A DNA stretch of 64,000 nucleotides, from IMG/VR virus record IMGVR_UViG_3300017761_005873, positions 65,261-129,260 of that record; one strand, 5' to 3'. The position numbers and the translations under genes are program-made. Positions 37,903 to 59,128 of this stretch are shown here, piece by piece. The notes under the pieces were generated by a model that made no database searches, was not told the origin of the DNA, and worked only from the letters and a program-made list of their open reading frames with translations. The first letter of the stretch is position 1; each line of letters opens with the position of its first letter. This DNA comes from a virus.

Positions 37903-39174
37903 TTAGTTAGAATTTATGGAAAATAGAATATTTACTATTTCTTTTTTATTGTTACTAATGATATCAAAAACTTTTTTATTTCTTAATACTTTAAAAACTA
38001 AATTATCAACAGAGAATTCACCTTCTTCTTTTGTAGACTTTCTACGGTCATCTCTTATTTTTTCCATCACTTTTGTGTAACTTTGTAATTTCTTTTTAGA
38101 GTCTTTCATTATTGATATCTTATTTAAGATATCTAAATATTTGTTTACTTTTTGAGTAATTAAATGTTTATCAACATTAGGTAGTTTATACTTTGGTTTT
38201 TTAATCCATTTATTATTAAGTAATGAATACATCGCACCCATACCTTTATCATCAAGTTGAGATTCATTTTGAACATATATTTCAACAGGATAATTATTTA
38301 TTTTAATTTCATTTGAATCTGCCCACAATGCTCTTTTATCACCAAAAAATTCTTTAGCAAACTCTTCATCGTCAGTTAAATCTTTATAATTAATCACAAG
38401 ATGTAAATCAATATCAGATAAATTTGTGTAATTATAATTTGCTAAACTACCTGTAAAAACAATATCTTTTAATTCAACACCTAAATCTAATTGATTAAAA
38501 TAAAATTTAGCAAGTGTTAATAATTTTTTTCGTATATTACTTTTTAAATGATTGTTTAACCAAAACTTTGAATTTAATTTTTTATGGTACTCAATTTCAA
38601 TATCTGTTTTTAATTTAGATGGTAATTCATCTTCCATTATTAATGATTCATTCATTGAAATATCAATACCTAATATATCACTAATTTTAATATTTTTTAA
38701 ATTTAATGTACCATGAACTAATGGTTTATAATAACCTTTTGAATAAACATATTCCATAAGATAATATAAATACTTAGGGTCAAGTTTATCTATTGCTGTA
38801 ACTTTAATACCTATATGTTCAGGATTATATTCTTTTACAGGTTTACCAACCTTTTCTTCACTACCTCTTCTAATTATCCAAAAATCGGCATCAGGAAAAT
38901 TTGTTTTGGCATTAATAAAAAGTCCTAATTTAGATTCATTTAATAAATCTTTATTAATCGCTTCTTCTAACTTAGCTTTTTTAAGTTTTGTATAATATTT
39001 TGGGTCTTCAGCTAAATGGTCCATAGCAATTTCCTTTGCTTGTTTTTTATTATCAGTATGTTCCATTTCGGTTTTAACACCTAATTTAAATTGAGATGTT
39101 AAATCCTCAATTGGAAGTTTATGTTTTTTAGCAATCTGAGGCAATGTTAATTTATCTGCTTTACCACCTTTCAT
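37903..39174 (-). CDS. multi-domain protein: DUF5661-like + HsdS/TRD-like + Pol-beta-type nucleotidyltransferase
   Basis: EMEHT...EIAMDHLAEDPKYYTKL; LDPKYLYYLM...HGT.NLKNIKISDI; FTGSLANYNY...SDIDLH, PVEIY. Confidence 0.7.
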   Translation of the reverse strand: MKGGKADKLTLPQIAKKHKLPIEDLTSQFKLGVKTEMEHTDNKKQAKEIAMDHLAEDPKYYTKLKKAKLEEAINKDLLNESKLGLFINAKTNFPDADFWIIRRGSEEKVGKPVKEYNPEHIGIKVTAIDKLDPKYLYYLMEYVYSKGYYKPLVHGTLNLKNIKISDILGIDISMNESLIMEDELPSKLKTDIEIEYHKKLNSKFWLNNHLKSNIRKKLLTLAKFYFNQLDLGVELKDIVFTGSLANYNYTNLSDIDLHLVINYKDLTDDEEFAKEFFGDKRALWADSNEIKINNYPVEIYVQNESQLDDKGMGAMYSLLNNKWIKKPKYKLPNVDKHLITQKVNKYLDILNKISIMKDSKKKLQSYTKVMEKIRDDRRKSTKEEGEFSVDNLVFKVLRNKKVFDIISNNKKEIVNILFSINSN

Positions 39175-55761: not shown

Positions 55762-56475
55762 ATGAAATTTAAAACAATTATATTATCTGATGTTCATTTA
55801 GGTTCAAAAGCATCAAGAACAAAAGATGTTTTAAAATTCTTGGATGAAAACACTTGTCAAAGATTAATATTGAATGGTGATATAATTGATATGTGGTCAT
55901 TAAAAAGAGGTGGCAAATGGAAAGAATCTCATTCAAAATTTATAAATAAAATATTAAAAATAGCTAAGAAAAAAGAAGTTATTTATCTAATAGGTAATCA
56001 CGATGATTTCTTACATAAATTTCAACCCCTACATCTACCTAATATAAAATTATTAAAAGAATATATATTAACAGATTCTAATAATAAAAAACTTTATATC
56101 TTTCATGGTGATGTTCTTGATATTTTTATAACAAAAATAAAATGGTTAGCCGTAATTGGTTCAATTGGCTATGATATTGCATTATGGCTTAATAGAAAGT
56201 ATAATTGGTATAGAGAAAAAAGAAATCTACCATATTACTCAATCTCAAAAGAAATAAAAAATAAAATAAAAAGCGCAGTTAATTTTATTAATGACTTTGA
56301 AGACAATGCTATTAATTTAGCTAAATTAAAAAATTGTGATATAGCAGTATGTGGTCATATACATCAACCTGATTTAAAAGAAAATTATATGAACTCAGGA
56401 GATTGGTGCGAAAACTGTACAGCTTTAGTTGAAACACTAGATGGAAAATGGGAAATATTTCATTTTCATAAATAA
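55762..56475 (+). CDS. LpxH-like (UDP-2,3-diacylglucosamine hydrolase family) metallophosphoesterase
   Basis: SDVHLG, LNGDIID.W, GNHD, FHGD, CGHIHQP, YMNSGDWCENCTAL. Confidence 0.8.
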   Translation: MKFKTIILSDVHLGSKASRTKDVLKFLDENTCQRLILNGDIIDMWSLKRGGKWKESHSKFINKILKIAKKKEVIYLIGNHDDFLHKFQPLHLPNIKLLKEYILTDSNNKKLYIFHGDVLDIFITKIKWLAVIGSIGYDIALWLNRKYNWYREKRNLPYYSISKEIKNKIKSAVNFINDFEDNAINLAKLKNCDIAVCGHIHQPDLKENYMNSGDWCENCTALVETLDGKWEIFHFHK

Positions 56476-56481
56476 ATATTT

Positions 56482-56489
56482 TATCTTTG
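56482..56489 (+). promoter_or_regulatory. Bacteroidota -7 box
   Basis: TATCTTTG, with ATG 56494 starting 5 nt after the final G. Confidence 0.55.
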
Positions 56490-56493
56490 CCTT

Positions 56494-57171
56494 ATGAAAA
56501 TCTTTGCAATTTCAGATACTCATGGAAAGCATGAGCAAGTTCAAATACCTGAAGGTACTGATATGCTTATTCATGCAGGTGATTTTTCAAATATAAAACT
56601 TCCTGCAATGAACCATAATGAAGTTAATTTATTTTTAATTTGGCTTGAACAACAACCTGTTAAATATAAAGTGATTATTGCTGGTAATCATGATACTTCT
56701 ATTGAAAGTAGATTCATTACTAAAAAAGATTTTAAAAATAGAGGTATTATCTACCTTGAACATGAATCTATTGAGATTGAAGGAATTAAAATATTTGGTT
56801 CTCCATATACTCCCGAATATCATAATTGGGCTTTTAATCGCACAAGGGCTAAACTTGGAAAAATTTGGGATTCAATTCCTGATGATACAGATATCTTAAT
56901 TACTCATGGTCCTCCTAAAGGTATTTTAGATTCTGCATCAAGAGATAAAAATAATCATGAACATGTAGGATGTTCTGCTTTACTTAAAAAAGTTTTAAAA
57001 GTAAAACCTAAATATATGATATTTGGTCATATTCATGACAATGGTGATAATTTAAACAATGGCATGTTTAAATTAAATGAATATATAACAATCTTTGCAA
57101 ATGTATCTTGCGTTAAAGATGGTGATAACTTACCATTTGTACACAATGGATATAGTTTTGATTACTTATAA
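56494..57171 (+). CDS. calcineurin-like metallophosphoesterase (MPPED/239FB-like)
   Basis: ISDTHG, HAGDF, IAGNHD, GSPYTP, ITHGPP, FGHIH. Confidence 0.85.
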   Translation: MKIFAISDTHGKHEQVQIPEGTDMLIHAGDFSNIKLPAMNHNEVNLFLIWLEQQPVKYKVIIAGNHDTSIESRFITKKDFKNRGIIYLEHESIEIEGIKIFGSPYTPEYHNWAFNRTRAKLGKIWDSIPDDTDILITHGPPKGILDSASRDKNNHEHVGCSALLKKVLKVKPKYMIFGHIHDNGDNLNNGMFKLNEYITIFANVSCVKDGDNLPFVHNGYSFDYL

Positions 57172-58112
57172 CCAATTTGACCTAATAAAGTACTTAAACT
57201 AGTTAATAATCTTTGTTTAGGCATTATTTGAGGACCATATTTTTTTTGGTCAACACCTTGCATTAAAGTTATAAATTGTCCATTAAATTCAGAAGGTGTA
57301 TCAACTTGTGTTAAAGTTTTTTTCTGTTGTGTATTTCTTTGTGTTTGACTAGTAGTACTTTGTTTTAAAGCTGCTGTTGAAAGAGATGATTGTGGTGCAA
57401 ATCCTGTACTACCAATAGGTGTACCTCCCATTGCTGTTTGCTCCATTAACATTTTGCGAACCATTGCTTTTAATTGAGATTCTGTAATTAAAACTTTTTT
57501 CATATTACTTTTATTGTAATTAGTGAATTTAGATTCAGTCATTGTATTTTGTTTATTTAAATTAATATTACCAATTATATTTTTTATTATCTGATTTTTA
57601 TATGGTTCTATTAAAACTTTATATACAAAAGCAATAGTTCCAACTATTTTAATTAACATTTCAAAAAATTGATATATAGAATCAAGAGTAATATTATTCA
57701 TTAATTGAGAATGTAATATCCCATCAAACCATTTTACTAAATCAGGTATTTTTGTAAAGTTATTAATATAAAAAGATGTTGTACATGCTAATACTGATAA
57801 ATATACTAAATTTTTTAAACTAGCTGTATTATTTAATGTTGTTAAAAATTTATTTAAATAATCATTATTAATCTTATTAATATTTCTTACAATTGAATCT
57901 TTTATTTGACTTAAATAATATTGTAACGCTTTATTATTTGTTAATAATTTTTTATAAAAATCACCTATTTCCTTTACAGTTTTTATATTGTCAAATAATT
58001 GATTAGAAAAATCACTAAAAATGTTTTCATTTAAATCTTTATTCTCCAATTCTAACATTAATGAATTGCAAGACTCTATAAACCTTTCCCTTTTTTGAAA
58101 ATCTTTTGACAT
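57162..58112 (-). CDS. putative head-packaged protein; in-frame fusion containing a second gene starting at 57503
   Basis: Late motif at 58123-58130, DLNE site, two hydrophobic segments; internal late motif at 57517-57524 before MKKVLITESQLKAMVRKMLMEQ. Confidence 0.6.
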   Translation of the reverse strand: MSKDFQKRERFIESCNSLMLELENKDLNENIFSDFSNQLFDNIKTVKEIGDFYKKLLTNNKALQYYLSQIKDSIVRNINKINNDYLNKFLTTLNNTASLKNLVYLSVLACTTSFYINNFTKIPDLVKWFDGILHSQLMNNITLDSIYQFFEMLIKIVGTIAFVYKVLIEPYKNQIIKNIIGNINLNKQNTMTESKFTNYNKSNMKKVLITESQLKAMVRKMLMEQTAMGGTPIGSTGFAPQSSLSTAALKQSTTSQTQRNTQQKKTLTQVDTPSEFNGQFITLMQGVDQKKYGPQIMPKQRLLTSLSTLLGQIGYK

Positions 58113-58149
58113 TTTTTTATTGTAAATAGTAAAATTATAAAAAAAAGTA

Positions 58150-58174: not shown

Positions 58175-58258
58175 GTCAGAGTGATGGAACTGGTAGACAT
58201 GCAGGACTTAAAATCCTGTGGCAGCAATGCCGTAAGGGTTCGATTCCCTTCTCTGATA
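58175..58258 (+). tRNA. tRNA-Leu(UAA), CCA not encoded
   Basis: Acceptor GTCAGAG/CTCTGAT, anticodon arm CAGGA-CTTAAAA-TCCTG, long variable arm, AAGGG-TTCGATT-CCCTT. Confidence 0.93.
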
Positions 58259-58263
58259 CATAA

Positions 58264-58337
<74 letters not shown>

Positions 58338-58340
58338 CAA

Positions 58341-58545
58341 TGACTAAGAGATAGTCAGAGTCTTTAATCCAAGACTTAAACAATGGAATCGGTACTAAAG
58401 AGGACATCGTTAATGCCTCTTTCATAGGAATAAAGGGAAAGCACAAACCCTCCTAGTAGTGTGGATGTTTTCATGAGGGATGCCTCACAGGTTTTTAAGA
58501 AATAGAAAACCGAAATAACTACTCACAAGTAATCTCATTGTGGGG
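58341..58545 (+). ncRNA. candidate structured ncRNA of unknown class
   Basis: Six contiguous helical elements including a three-way junction; GC-richer than the flanks; sits between tRNA-Arg and a tRNA-like element. Confidence 0.55.
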
Positions 58546-58549
58546 AAAT

Positions 58550-58632
58550 AGTCAGGAGGCACATAATGGGATGAATGGTTGTCCTAACCTGAGAAGGGTG
58601 GTGCAAAGCAAGTTCAAATCTTGCCCTGGCTA
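58550..58632 (+). ncRNA. tRNA-like element: acceptor stem and T arm without canonical D/anticodon arms
   Basis: AGTCAGG/CCTGGCT acceptor, GCAAG-TTCAAAT-CTTGC T arm, discriminator A; the middle folds as GCAC/GTGC enclosing two small hairpins. Confidence 0.65.
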
Positions 58633-58654
58633 CTATTTAAGATAAATATAGCAT

Positions 58655-59128
58655 ATGAATTTATCAAAAAATCTTGCACTTTTTGAGATGACAAGAAACT
58701 CAACTGCTAAAAGAAAAGGTGTTAGTAATGAACCAACTCCTCAACATATTCAAAATATGAAAGTGTTGGCTGAAAAAATATTTGAACCTATTAGAAGACA
58801 CTTTAATACACCAATTCATATTACTTCAGGTTATAGGAGTGAAGCTTTAAATAAAGTAACTCCAGGCGCATCTAAAACTTCTCAACACTCTAAAGGAGAA
58901 GCAATTGATATTGATATGGATGGTAGTGGTTCTAAAATTACCAATGCTGATATATTTAATTGGATTAAAGATAATTTAGACTTTGACCAGCTTATTTGGG
59001 AATTTGGCGATGAAACAAATCCTAGTTGGCTACATGTATCATATAATACAGATGGACCACAAAGAGGTCAAATATTAAAAGCATCAAAAGGTGTGTTTGG
59101 TACTAAATATACACCCTATACATCTTAA
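58655..59128 (+). CDS. peptidase M15A-family endolysin (D-Ala-D-Ala peptidase fold)
   Basis: ITSGYRS, SQHSKGEAID, FDQLIWE, WLHVSY; late motif at 58632-58639. Confidence 0.85.
   Translation: MNLSKNLALFEMTRNSTAKRKGVSNEPTPQHIQNMKVLAEKIFEPIRRHFNTPIHITSGYRSEALNKVTPGASKTSQHSKGEAIDIDMDGSGSKITNADIFNWIKDNLDFDQLIWEFGDETNPSWLHVSYNTDGPQRGQILKASKGVFGTKYTPYTS

What the first reader, a model, noticed from the sequence alone, without database searches (positions are those of the whole stretch)
58550..58632. Anticodon-less tRNA mimic at the end of the tRNA cluster
Seen: a complete top half (7-bp acceptor AGTCAGG/CCTGGCT, T arm GCAAG-TTCAAAT-CTTGC, discriminator A). The D and anticodon arms are replaced by a GCAC/GTGC stem enclosing GGGAT/GTCCT and a CCT-GAGA-AGG GNRA hairpin. 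Known: RNase P, RNase Z, CCA-adding enzyme and EF-Tu read mainly the top half, as in tmRNA and bacterial Y RNAs. Inference: a processed stable RNA acting as a decoy for tRNA-targeting defence or toxin enzymes, or as a processing signal that matures the 3' end of the upstream structured RNA. Its last base overlaps the endolysin late motif.
Basis: partly seen in the sequence, partly recalled or inferred. Interest (0 to 1): 0.7.

Follow-up and report, generated by a model that had tools for sequence, protein, structure and literature searches.

The report
Non-decoding tRNA-shaped phage RNA gene
This 83-base stretch at the end of a phage tRNA cluster keeps the upper half of a tRNA but has no codon-reading arm; it is a diverged member of a very large phage family of tRNA-shaped RNAs whose job, as for similar RNAs of phages T4 and T5, is unknown.

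Summary
Window 58550-58632 has a 7-bp acceptor stem, a 5-bp T stem with loop TTCAAAT, discriminator A and no anticodon arm. ARAGORN and Rfam do not call it.

It is not a lone oddity. It is a diverged member, without the standard D arm, of a phage family with constant ends (AGTCAGG...CCTGRCTA) and interchangeable structured middles. Only 9 short MAG contigs matched among 185,579 species genomes.

Family members share the leader (U at -1) and trailer (C74, not C75, A76) of the true tRNAs in the same arrays. The window's T stem keeps pairing through compensatory changes. The element abuts a conserved ~208-nt structured RNA that always lies between tRNAs or tRNA-like elements.

Most likely RNase P and the 3' tRNA-processing enzymes cut it out, which also sets the neighbour's 3' end. 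A decoy role is untested.

Closest known are T5 RNA1/RNA2 and T4 species I RNA, all of unknown function. This scan has met the same family before on other DNA (e.g. e1-5966834, e1-6107109).

The parts
58106..58135 (+). sigma-70-like promoter match (TTGACA, 18 nt, TAAAAT) upstream of the RNA cluster. It is only a consensus match, and the type may not suit the host.
   Evidence: 11 of 12 positions; 10 such sites in the scanned region against 7.1 expected, so weak.
58175..58258 (+). tRNA-Leu(UAA), first gene of the cluster
   Evidence: ARAGORN; Rfam tRNA 55 bits.
58264..58337 (+). tRNA-Arg(UCU)
   Evidence: ARAGORN; Rfam tRNA 77.6 bits.
58338..58545 (+). conserved ~208-nt structured RNA ('SR210') of unknown class, set tightly between tRNA-Arg and the tRNA-like element
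   Evidence: Its 27-nt motif is in 13 viral contigs. Alignment of 9 distinct copies: 43 predicted pairs, 14 with compensatory changes. No Rfam match at E<=10. Contigs 100% identical to it are present in 4 metatranscriptome runs of 3 studies.
58546..58549 (+). 4-nt spacer AAAT, the 5' leader of the tRNA-like element (U at -1)
   Evidence: Across the family, -1 is T in 243 of 294 elements and in 474 of 666 true tRNAs, against a background T of 32%.
58550..58632 (+). the tRNA-like element (83 nt). Acceptor 58550-58556 with 58625-58631; A8 G9; stem GCAC 58559-58562 with GTGC 58601-58604; hairpin 1 at 58567-58586 (loop AUGG); hairpin 2 at 58587-58599; T arm 58608-58624; discriminator A58632.
   Evidence: Family covariance model R1: 37.2 bits, E 3e-7. 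Subfamily alignment A4.
58632..58646 (+). late-promoter-type motif ACTATTTAAGATAAA of the endolysin gene. It overlaps the discriminator and the C-T-A trailer.
   Evidence: 19 matches in the window against 3.57 expected.
58655..59128 (+). endolysin, Peptidase_M15_3
   Evidence: PF08291, E 3.5e-16.

Best explanation
58550-58632 is a gene for a tRNA-shaped RNA that cannot decode. It is a diverged copy, without the standard D arm, of the 'AG' subfamily of a large phage-specific family derived from a leucine-type tRNA. That family has constant ends (AGTCAGG...T arm...CCTGRCT-A) and interchangeable structured middles. Inferred mechanism: it is transcribed on the + strand together with tRNA-Leu, tRNA-Arg and the 208-nt structured RNA. 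The acceptor/T-arm helix is then recognised by the host's tRNA-maturation enzymes. RNase P would cut between U58549 and A58550. The 3' end would be trimmed at or just after A58632, and CCA completed by the CCA-adding enzyme. These cuts would (a) create the mature 3' end of the upstream 208-nt RNA, (b) separate the RNA cluster from the endolysin message, and (c) release a compact ~83-nt RNA in which the tRNA top half acts as a handle for processing and stability and the two middle hairpins are the cargo. What is shown: the anatomy, family membership, conservation of the top half by compensatory change, tRNA-like leader and trailer, and the constant arrangement beside the 208-nt RNA. What is inferred: the cleavages, CCA addition, stability, and any activity of the released RNA. 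This copy has lost U8 and the standard D arm and has changed half of its subfamily's invariant middle positions. I therefore think its main selected role here is the processing ('punctuation') signal, with any trans-acting role of the released RNA uncertain.
For: Anatomy. Only 9 stretches matched in genomes of 185,579 species, all on short MAG contigs of inconsistent taxonomy. Among 371 acceptor+T-arm candidates in those loci that ARAGORN does not call, 294 start with AGTCAGG and most others differ by one base; these loci were, however, chosen by that motif. The family is not decaying pseudogenes. In the 15 insert clusters with at least 3 members there are 154 predicted insert pairs, 21 of them with double-sided changes against 2.0 in shifted controls, and 588 of 601 cells are paired. 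In the scaffold, 6 of 15 pairs show double changes, and 0 of 500 shuffles reach the observed values. Processing signature: position 74 is C in 289 of 293 elements and 571 of 593 true tRNAs; position 75 is C in 9 of 293 and 4 of 593; position 76 is A in 225 of 293 and 425 of 593. Leader U-1 occurs in 243 of 294 elements and 474 of 666 tRNAs. The window has AAAU|AGUCAGG and ...CCUGGCU-A-C-U-A. Membership of this copy: model R1 scores it 37.2 bits, above the window's own tRNAs at 31.1 and 28.4. A canonical member at L330:5503-5574 carries the window's last 25 nt exactly. The AG subfamily comprises 24 viral stretches. Its 77-nt member in L343/L292 sits directly after the same 208-nt RNA. In alignment A4 the T-stem pairs covary (column 66-80: CG 6, UA 4; column 68-78: GC 10 and AU 1, the AU being the window), and all 7 acceptor pairs are kept in 11 of 11 sequences. 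Punctuation: the 208-nt RNA is followed after 4-7 nt by a tRNA or tRNA-like element in 14 of 14 loci. Precedent: T4 tRNA-Arg is followed by rnaD and rnaC, which are made from the tRNA-cluster precursor transcript (PMC2330249, passage).
Against: There are no direct RNA data for the element. In the four metatranscriptome runs laid, no contig covers 58562-58700. Two contigs of one study run across the predicted RNase P site to 58556; these are contigs, so they show no ends. The fold statistic is weak (z -2.0). The R1 score is partly circular, because the family was fished with motifs taken from this element. The C-T-A trailer in the window is also the start of the endolysin late motif, so here it may be kept for that reason. 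The window copy lacks U8 and a canonical D arm and agrees with only 9 of 18 subfamily-invariant middle columns, which fits partial decay of the middle. No close orthologue with the same middle was found, so the GCAC/GTGC stem and its two hairpins are untested by covariation. RNAalifold on the subfamily prefers a different closing stem. In three distinct relatives an ordinary tRNA does the punctuation job, so a special element is not required for it.
Confidence: 0.55

Rival explanations
1. The released RNA is the point. The tRNA top half is only a carrier, and the middle hairpins bind a host or phage factor. One case is the reader's idea of a decoy or sponge for a tRNA-binding defence nuclease or toxin; another is a small regulatory RNA.
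For: Across the family the inserts are maintained by compensatory changes. There are more than 200 insert types (216 clusters) and up to 11 copies per locus. This is hard to explain by punctuation alone. The AG subfamily keeps 18 invariant middle columns across 10 distinct sequences in different neighbourhoods. One subfamily member (L330:5171-5273) lies next to a coding stretch in a 9.8-kb contig where ARAGORN calls no tRNA.
Against: No partner, target or expression data. I did not search the window's insert against other sequences for a possible target. The window copy has changed 9 of those 18 invariant positions. Most tRNA-cleaving defence nucleases named in the search listings act on the anticodon arm (e.g. 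PMC12445682, title and abstract only), which this RNA lacks.
Confidence: 0.2
2. It is a decaying pseudogene of a family member, kept only by recent origin, with no function.
For: The standard D arm and U8 are lost. It has no ARAGORN or Rfam call. Half of the subfamily-invariant middle positions are changed. Its insert has no close relative.
Against: All 12 pairs of the top half are intact, and the T loop is the family consensus TTCRAAT. Two T-stem pairs differ from the subfamily consensus in ways that keep pairing, one of them by a change on both sides. The leader and trailer fit the tRNA signature. The position directly after the 208-nt RNA is conserved.
Confidence: 0.1
3. It is an aminoacylated tRNA mimic, charged with leucine by host LeuRS and used outside decoding.
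For: Canonical family members keep what bacterial LeuRS needs: A73, U8-A14, and G18G19 with the T loop. They lack only what is dispensable, the anticodon arm and long variable arm (PMC2377443, abstract and passages; PMC9976931, passages on truncated tRNA-Leu). The family D arm GGCGGAAUUGGUAGACGC is of leucine type. Leu is the commonest ARAGORN label, 14 of 54 calls.
Against: The window copy has A8, no canonical D arm and a U3.G70 wobble. A G4-U69 wobble was strongly harmful for Aquifex LeuRS (PMC2377443, passage). There is no experimental evidence for any member.
Confidence: 0.05

Closest known systems
Phage T5 RNA1 and RNA2 (NC_005859 30501-30644 and 32959-33083, annotated 'tRNA-like stable RNA with unknown functions')
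   Same: They lie inside a phage tRNA region among other unexplained stable RNAs. RNA1 has a leucine-type D arm GCCGGAAUUGGUAGACGG, a long insert where the anticodon arm should be, and a T arm. RNA2 has T arm GCAGG-UUCGAAU-CCUGU, which is also a common family variant. The overall design, a tRNA shell with a foreign middle, is the same.
   Different: The acceptor sequences differ. Model R1 gives them 25.2 and 22.2 bits, no better than ordinary tRNAs, so homology is not shown. The window copy lacks the standard D arm that RNA1 keeps.
Phage T4 species I RNA (rnaC), with species II (rnaD)
   Same: The gene order matches: tRNA-Arg, then a ~120-nt stable RNA, then a tRNA-like stable RNA as the last gene of the cluster, in the region leading to the e.1-e.8 genes. 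rnaC has a T arm CCGGG-UUCGAAU-CCCGG and a terminal acceptor-like pairing. Both are made from the tRNA-cluster precursor transcript (PMC2330249, passage). Their functions are unknown (PMC9697503, passage).
   Different: The rnaC acceptor-like stem is imperfect (two U.U by my reading) and the RNA is 139 nt. R1 gives 22.4 bits over only part of it. No sequence similarity to the window's 208-nt RNA or to its element was shown.
Plant mitochondrial t-elements
   Same: These are tRNA-like structures without a decoding function that act as cis signals for RNase P and/or RNase Z and so set the 5' or 3' ends of neighbouring transcripts (PMC1920247, abstract). This is the same logic as proposed here for the 3' end of the 208-nt RNA.
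   Different: They are organellar, unrelated in sequence, and flank mRNAs. This is analogy only.
tmRNA tRNA-like domain, bacterial Y RNA (YrlA), MALAT1 mascRNA
   Same: All are top-half tRNA mimics handled by tRNA enzymes (tmRNA: PMC3985003 abstract; YrlA: PMC4201824 abstract; mascRNA: bioRxiv 10.64898/2026.01.19.700226 abstract; all seen in the listing).
   Different: ARAGORN finds no tmRNA and there is no tag frame. The Rfam YrlA match is sub-threshold and lies on the true tRNAs. YrlA has the permuted topology, with the T arm before the D arm in the model (alignment). mascRNA is eukaryotic.
Engineered 'tRNA scaffold' for recombinant RNA expression
   Same: The same design idea: an RNA carried in place of the anticodon arm of a tRNA so that the cell processes and stabilises it. 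The scaffold's construction is recalled by me. The abstracts of PMC3401473 and PMC3753655 in the listing describe only recombinant RNA expression in E. coli.
   Different: It is artificial. Analogy only.

Membership tests
Canonical tRNA (Rfam RF00005 / ARAGORN) | Anticodon arm (5-bp stem, 7-nt loop) between the D and T arms | tested here: not met
   Only GCAC/GTGC with two hairpins lies between positions 9 and 56, and 3 nt (AAA) precede the T arm.
Canonical tRNA (Rfam RF00005 / ARAGORN) | Score at or above the family threshold (29 bits), or an ARAGORN call | tested here: not met
   No tRNA match on 58550-58632 even at E<=10. No ARAGORN call.
Canonical tRNA (Rfam RF00005 / ARAGORN) | 7-bp acceptor stem, 5-bp T stem with a 7-nt T loop, discriminator | tested here: met
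Phage AGTCAGG-type tRNA-like element family (uncatalogued; defined here) | Acceptor AGTCAGG / CCTGRCT, A73, T loop TTCRAAT | tested here: met
   The family was collected with this very pattern, so this row is true by construction.
Phage AGTCAGG-type tRNA-like element family (uncatalogued; defined here) | Leucine-type D arm with U8, A14 and G18G19 (GGCGGAAUUGGUAGACGC) | tested here: not met
   The window has A8 G9 then GCAC. A D arm by a simple rule is present in 235 of 289 family members. A UGG remains in the loop of hairpin 1.
Phage AGTCAGG-type tRNA-like element family (uncatalogued; defined here) | Lies in a tRNA array on the tRNA strand, with the leader and trailer of the array's tRNAs | tested here: met
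   The leader AAAU and trailer C-U-A fit. The trailer is also part of a promoter motif.
Phage AGTCAGG-type tRNA-like element family (uncatalogued; defined here) | Significant score with a covariance model of the family | tested here: met
   R1: 37.2 bits, E 3.2e-7, the best match in the window. This is partly circular.
AG subfamily (AGTCAGG-AG..., 75-99 nt) | A8 G9 and the conserved middle motifs (GTAA..A, TCC, GGTT.C, ATT) | tested here: inconclusive
   AG is present. The window agrees at 9 of 18 invariant middle columns of the MAFFT alignment A4. Positional orthology with L343/L292 after the 208-nt RNA.
Phage 'tRNA-like stable RNAs' of T4/T5 type | tRNA-like non-decoding RNA gene inside a phage tRNA cluster | tested here: met
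Phage 'tRNA-like stable RNAs' of T4/T5 type | Accumulates as a stable processed RNA | not testable with these tools
   Only contigs of RNA runs were available, and none covers the element.
Phage 'tRNA-like stable RNAs' of T4/T5 type | Sequence homology to T4 rnaC or T5 RNA1/RNA2 | tested here: inconclusive
   R1 scores them 22.4, 25.2 and 22.2 bits, within the range of ordinary tRNAs.
tmRNA | tRNA-like domain plus a tag reading frame and pseudoknots | tested here: not met
   ARAGORN finds no tmRNA. There is no Rfam match.
Bacterial Y RNA (YrlA, RF02553) | Match to the family model, with a Ro-binding stem holding the ends | tested here: not met
   The only YrlA match is 26.9 bits against 69, at 58204-58316, on the true tRNAs.

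The most novel reading that the evidence does not exclude
The family is a natural 'tRNA scaffold' system. Phages mount hundreds of different folded RNA cargos on one constant leucine-tRNA shell, so that host RNase P, 3' processing, CCA addition and tRNA-modifying enzymes mature and stabilise them. Canonical shells keep every LeuRS identity element and may even be leucylated. The cargos would act in trans on host or phage factors, for example as RNA decoys against defence. The window copy would then be a stripped-down member whose GNRA-type hairpin cargo still acts in trans, in addition to marking the 3' end of the neighbouring 208-nt RNA.
Probability: 0.15. Interest if true: 0.85.

Novelty: new member of a known kind. 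Interest (0 to 1): 0.5.

Why it matters
Non-decoding tRNA-like stable RNAs have been annotated in the tRNA clusters of T4 and T5 without any known function (PMC9697503 passage; annotations). This window shows that such RNAs are common. They belong to a phage-specific family with several hundred distinct members, one constant shell and swappable, structurally conserved inserts. They sit in 'RNA islands' together with other conserved structured RNAs. If the shell is a handle for processing and stability, these islands are tRNA-punctuated operons of small RNAs. Their cargos would then be a large untapped set of phage RNAs with likely roles in host takeover or defence. For annotation, the practical lesson is that such elements are either missed (this copy) or called low-scoring tRNAs with arbitrary anticodons (54 of 289 by ARAGORN; 32-41 bits in Rfam).

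Tried and rejected
Normal or pseudo tRNA call: rejected.

tmRNA or permuted tmRNA spanning 58339-58632: no ARAGORN or Rfam support. In relatives the 208-nt RNA is followed by ordinary tRNAs, so the two are separate modules.

Group I intron or a known ribozyme for the 208-nt RNA: no Rfam match at E<=10; left unidentified.

Homologues through the endolysin: 80 loci were fetched. blastn of the RNA region found only L007, and only its 208-nt RNA part. ARAGORN on the first 40 of the 80 found tRNAs only in L002; the other 40 were not scanned with ARAGORN.

Close orthologues of the window's own insert were not found: the exact 25-mer had 0 hits in viral contigs, the AG/T-arm pattern gave 1 hit in metagenome contigs, of another subtype, and the window-type first hairpin of the 208-nt RNA had 0 hits. 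The GCAC/GTGC stem and its hairpins therefore remain untested by covariation.

GenBank phages: blastn of the whole RNA region matched only the tRNAs. One canonical family member gave no match; only that one member was tried.

RNA evidence: four metatranscriptome runs were laid as contigs. No contig covers 58562-58700, which is no evidence of absence. Contigs identical to the window cover 58356-58556 only. Two contigs from one study end at 58556, which I read as an assembly branch point and not as an RNA end. Habitat labels of runs with small shares were not used.

Intron-containing tRNA-Leu: rejected, because conservation drops immediately after the D arm and no anticodon-stem halves are kept.

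Integron attC-like or other DNA-level repeat: considered because of the constant complementary ends and variable centre. Rejected because the ends are a tRNA acceptor, D and T arm, with the universal T loop and tRNA-type leader and trailer.

Phage-encoded CCA-adding enzyme: the nucleotidyltransferase-like ORF 37903-39174 gave only a sub-threshold MTPAP-like match (E 0.007); dropped.

Independent MFE folds of AG-subfamily members do not agree on one middle structure, and RNAalifold proposes GUAAU/GUUGC as the closing stem. I make no claim for a subfamily consensus of the middle.

Literature: searches (listings and abstracts only) returned no description of this family.

Full report
WHAT IS THERE. 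The window is bases 65261-129260 of a 129,260-base IMG/VR virus record, estimated 40% complete. It is a tailed phage with tail sheath, major head, portal and large terminase genes. On the + strand, after a divergently transcribed ORF, lie in order:
- tRNA-Leu(UAA), 58175-58258;
- tRNA-Arg(UCU), 58264-58337;
- a 208-nt non-coding stretch, 58338-58545;
- a 4-nt spacer, AAAT;
- the 83-nt element, 58550-58632;
- 22 nt later, a Peptidase_M15_3 endolysin gene.

The energy statistic is modest (z -2.0). ARAGORN and Rfam do not call it, even at E<=10. A relaxed scan for acceptor + T-arm top halves over the whole 129 kb returned the two tRNAs, this element and five A+T-rich weak candidates.

IT BELONGS TO A LARGE PHAGE FAMILY. 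I searched IMG/VR with a pattern made of its acceptor strands and T loop. The fetched loci hold 316 occurrences, 289 of them distinct, 67-148 nt long.

Features that the pattern did not force are nevertheless conserved. These are U8 G9, a leucine-type D arm (consensus GGCGGAAUUGGUAGACGC, present by a simple rule in 235 of 289) and a T stem ACAGG/CCUGU. Conservation collapses directly after the D arm. The middles fall into 216 similarity clusters, 171 of them singletons.

ARAGORN of the 289, with scattered anticodons and poor anticodon stems. Rfam scores canonical members at 32-41 bits as tRNA. The same pattern found only 9 stretches in one genome for each of 185,579 prokaryote species. All 9 lie on short MAG contigs with inconsistent taxonomy, so the family is phage-borne. 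One canonical member gave no blastn match in GenBank phages.

The elements lie in tRNA arrays on the tRNA strand, up to 11 per locus. Among top-half candidates in those loci that ARAGORN does not call, 294 of 371 start with AGTCAGG, and most of the rest differ by one base. These loci were chosen by that motif, which biases this count.

THE FAMILY IS NOT DECAYING. In the 15 insert clusters with at least three members, RNAalifold predicts 154 insert pairs. Of these, 21 show changes on both sides that keep the pair, against 2.0 in shifted controls, and 588 of 601 cells are paired. Paired and unpaired columns vary at the same rate. The structure was derived from the same alignments, so the contrast is somewhat inflated. 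In a 110-sequence alignment of the scaffold, 6 of 15 pairs show double changes, and no shuffle of 500 reaches the observed values.

IT LOOKS LIKE A SUBSTRATE OF tRNA MATURATION. The true tRNAs of these arrays have an unusual trailer: C at 74 (571 of 593), almost never C at 75 (4 of 593), and A at 76 (425 of 593). The tRNA-like elements have the same trailer (289, 9 and 225 of 293). Both groups favour A at -2 and U at -1: U-1 occurs in 243 of 294 elements and 474 of 666 tRNAs, against a 32% T background. The window copy has AAAU before it and A-C-U-A at its end.

One caveat applies to the window. Its ACTA is also the first four bases of a motif, ACTAWTTANNATAAA, that precedes many structural genes (19 matches against 3.57 expected).

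WHERE THE WINDOW COPY FITS. A covariance model of 110 canonical members scores the element at 37.2 bits, above the window's genuine tRNAs at 31.1 and 28.4. This is partly circular. Independent points are:
- A canonical 72-nt member in a metagenome contig (L330:5503-5574) carries the window's last 25 nt exactly.
- A subfamily with A8 G9 (24 viral stretches) shares its layout and motifs. Its 77-nt member in L343/L292 sits directly after the same 208-nt RNA, so it is the positional orthologue.
- In the alignment of 11 distinct subfamily sequences, all acceptor pairs are kept. The T stem covaries: column 66-80 is CG 6 and UA 4; column 68-78 is GC 10 and AU 1, the AU being the window.

Against full membership, the copy has no U8 and no canonical D arm. 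It agrees with only 9 of the 18 middle columns that are invariant in the other ten sequences. Its own GCAC/GTGC stem has no counterpart in the subfamily, for which RNAalifold prefers GUAAU/GUUGC. I found no closer relative, so the middle of this particular copy is untested.

THE NEIGHBOUR. The 208-nt stretch is a conserved structured RNA. Its 27-nt motif occurs in 13 viral contigs. Nine distinct copies give 43 predicted pairs, 14 with compensatory changes. It matches no Rfam family. In all 14 loci it begins 2-4 nt after a tRNA or tRNA-like element and is followed, 4-7 nt after its last hairpin, by another one. By my reading, the follower is an AGTCAGG-type or other anticodon-less element in six distinct cases and an ordinary tRNA in three. 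Contigs 100% identical to the window over 58356-58556 are present in four metatranscriptome runs of three studies. This shows presence in RNA libraries but not RNA ends.

MECHANISM. The best-supported reading is a tRNA-punctuated small-RNA operon. RNase P would cut at 58549/58550, and 3' processing would act at the discriminator. Together these cuts would release the element, finish the 3' end of the 208-nt RNA and detach the downstream endolysin region. The top half would be the handle. Whether the released 83-nt RNA acts in trans is open.

The family-wide conservation of inserts argues that cargos matter in general. The divergence of this copy's middle argues that here the handle may be what is kept. 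A decoy function is not excluded and was not tested.

Leucylation is an attractive idea for canonical members. Bacterial LeuRS needs A73 and the D/T-loop core but not the anticodon or variable arms (PMC2377443, abstract and passages; PMC9976931, passages). It is unlikely for this copy, which has A8, no standard D arm and a U3.G70 wobble.

WHAT IS KNOWN. T4 has the same gene order: tRNA-Arg, then rnaD, then rnaC, the last genes of the cluster. rnaC has a T arm and an acceptor-like closing stem. PMC2330249 (passage) says the cluster transcript is the precursor of the tRNAs and of species I and II RNAs. [quoted passage not shown]

T5 annotates RNA1 and RNA2 as 'tRNA-like stable RNA with unknown functions', beside four other stable RNAs in its tRNA region. 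RNA1 has a leucine-type D arm and a long insert. I took the T5 lead from earlier notes of this scan and then checked it. R1 does not separate these coliphage RNAs from ordinary tRNAs (22-25 bits), so the likeness is of kind, not shown homology.

Plant mitochondrial t-elements are the clearest functional analogue for punctuation (PMC1920247, abstract). My literature searches (listings and abstracts only) found no description of the AGTCAGG family. Earlier agents of this scan reached the same view on other genomes; that is not independent evidence.

VERDICT. I file it as a new member of a known kind, the non-decoding tRNA-like stable RNAs of phage tRNA clusters. Interest is moderate for this single diverged copy and higher for the family as a whole.

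Noticed in passing
window 58338-58545: A conserved ~208-nt structured RNA of unknown class. It has a 27-nt invariant motif, 43 predicted pairs of which 14 are compensatory, and no Rfam match. It always lies between tRNAs or tRNA-like elements, and contigs identical to it occur in freshwater metatranscriptome runs. A 276-nt version with an extra domain is in L090/L094.
   Followed up: partly
loci L082-L319 (phage tRNA arrays): True tRNA genes of these phages almost never encode CCA. Instead they have C74, A or T at 75, and A76 (C75 in 4 of 593). They also have a leader with A at -2 and U at -1. This unusual, uniform end signature suggests one particular 3'-maturation route.
   Followed up: partly
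window 58632-58646 and 18 other sites: The motif ACTAWTTANNATAAA occurs 19 times (up to 1 mismatch) against 3.57 expected. It lies mostly just upstream of structural genes (sheath, head, terminase and others), so it is probably this phage's late promoter motif.
   Followed up: partly
L083:6140-6208 (- strand), about 5 nt downstream of the 208-nt RNA: A ~63-nt tRNA-like element with a different acceptor (GGGAGUA/UACUCCC), a D arm and a T arm, but only ~12 nt where the anticodon arm should be. ARAGORN does not call it. It is a second, unrelated type of anticodon-less element in the same position. The coordinates are estimated by eye.
   Followed up: no
L202:8501-8562 and L082:2479-2547: An Rfam freshwater-1 RNA match at 70 bits (cut-off 72) lies inside a tRNA / tRNA-like array. 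A sub-threshold twister-P1 ribozyme match (48.5 bits against 67.2) lies in a related phage contig.
   Followed up: no
L339 and L348/L333, about 30 nt upstream of their tRNA-like elements: A shared hairpin-like sequence (GGTGACG.TCAGGA.AGACTGA) precedes AG-type elements in different contigs. It may be the 3' end of yet another conserved array RNA.
   Followed up: no
window 55762-57171: Two adjacent calcineurin-like metallophosphoesterase genes (PF00149; E 3e-12 and 1e-11) lie just upstream of the RNA cluster region.
   Followed up: no
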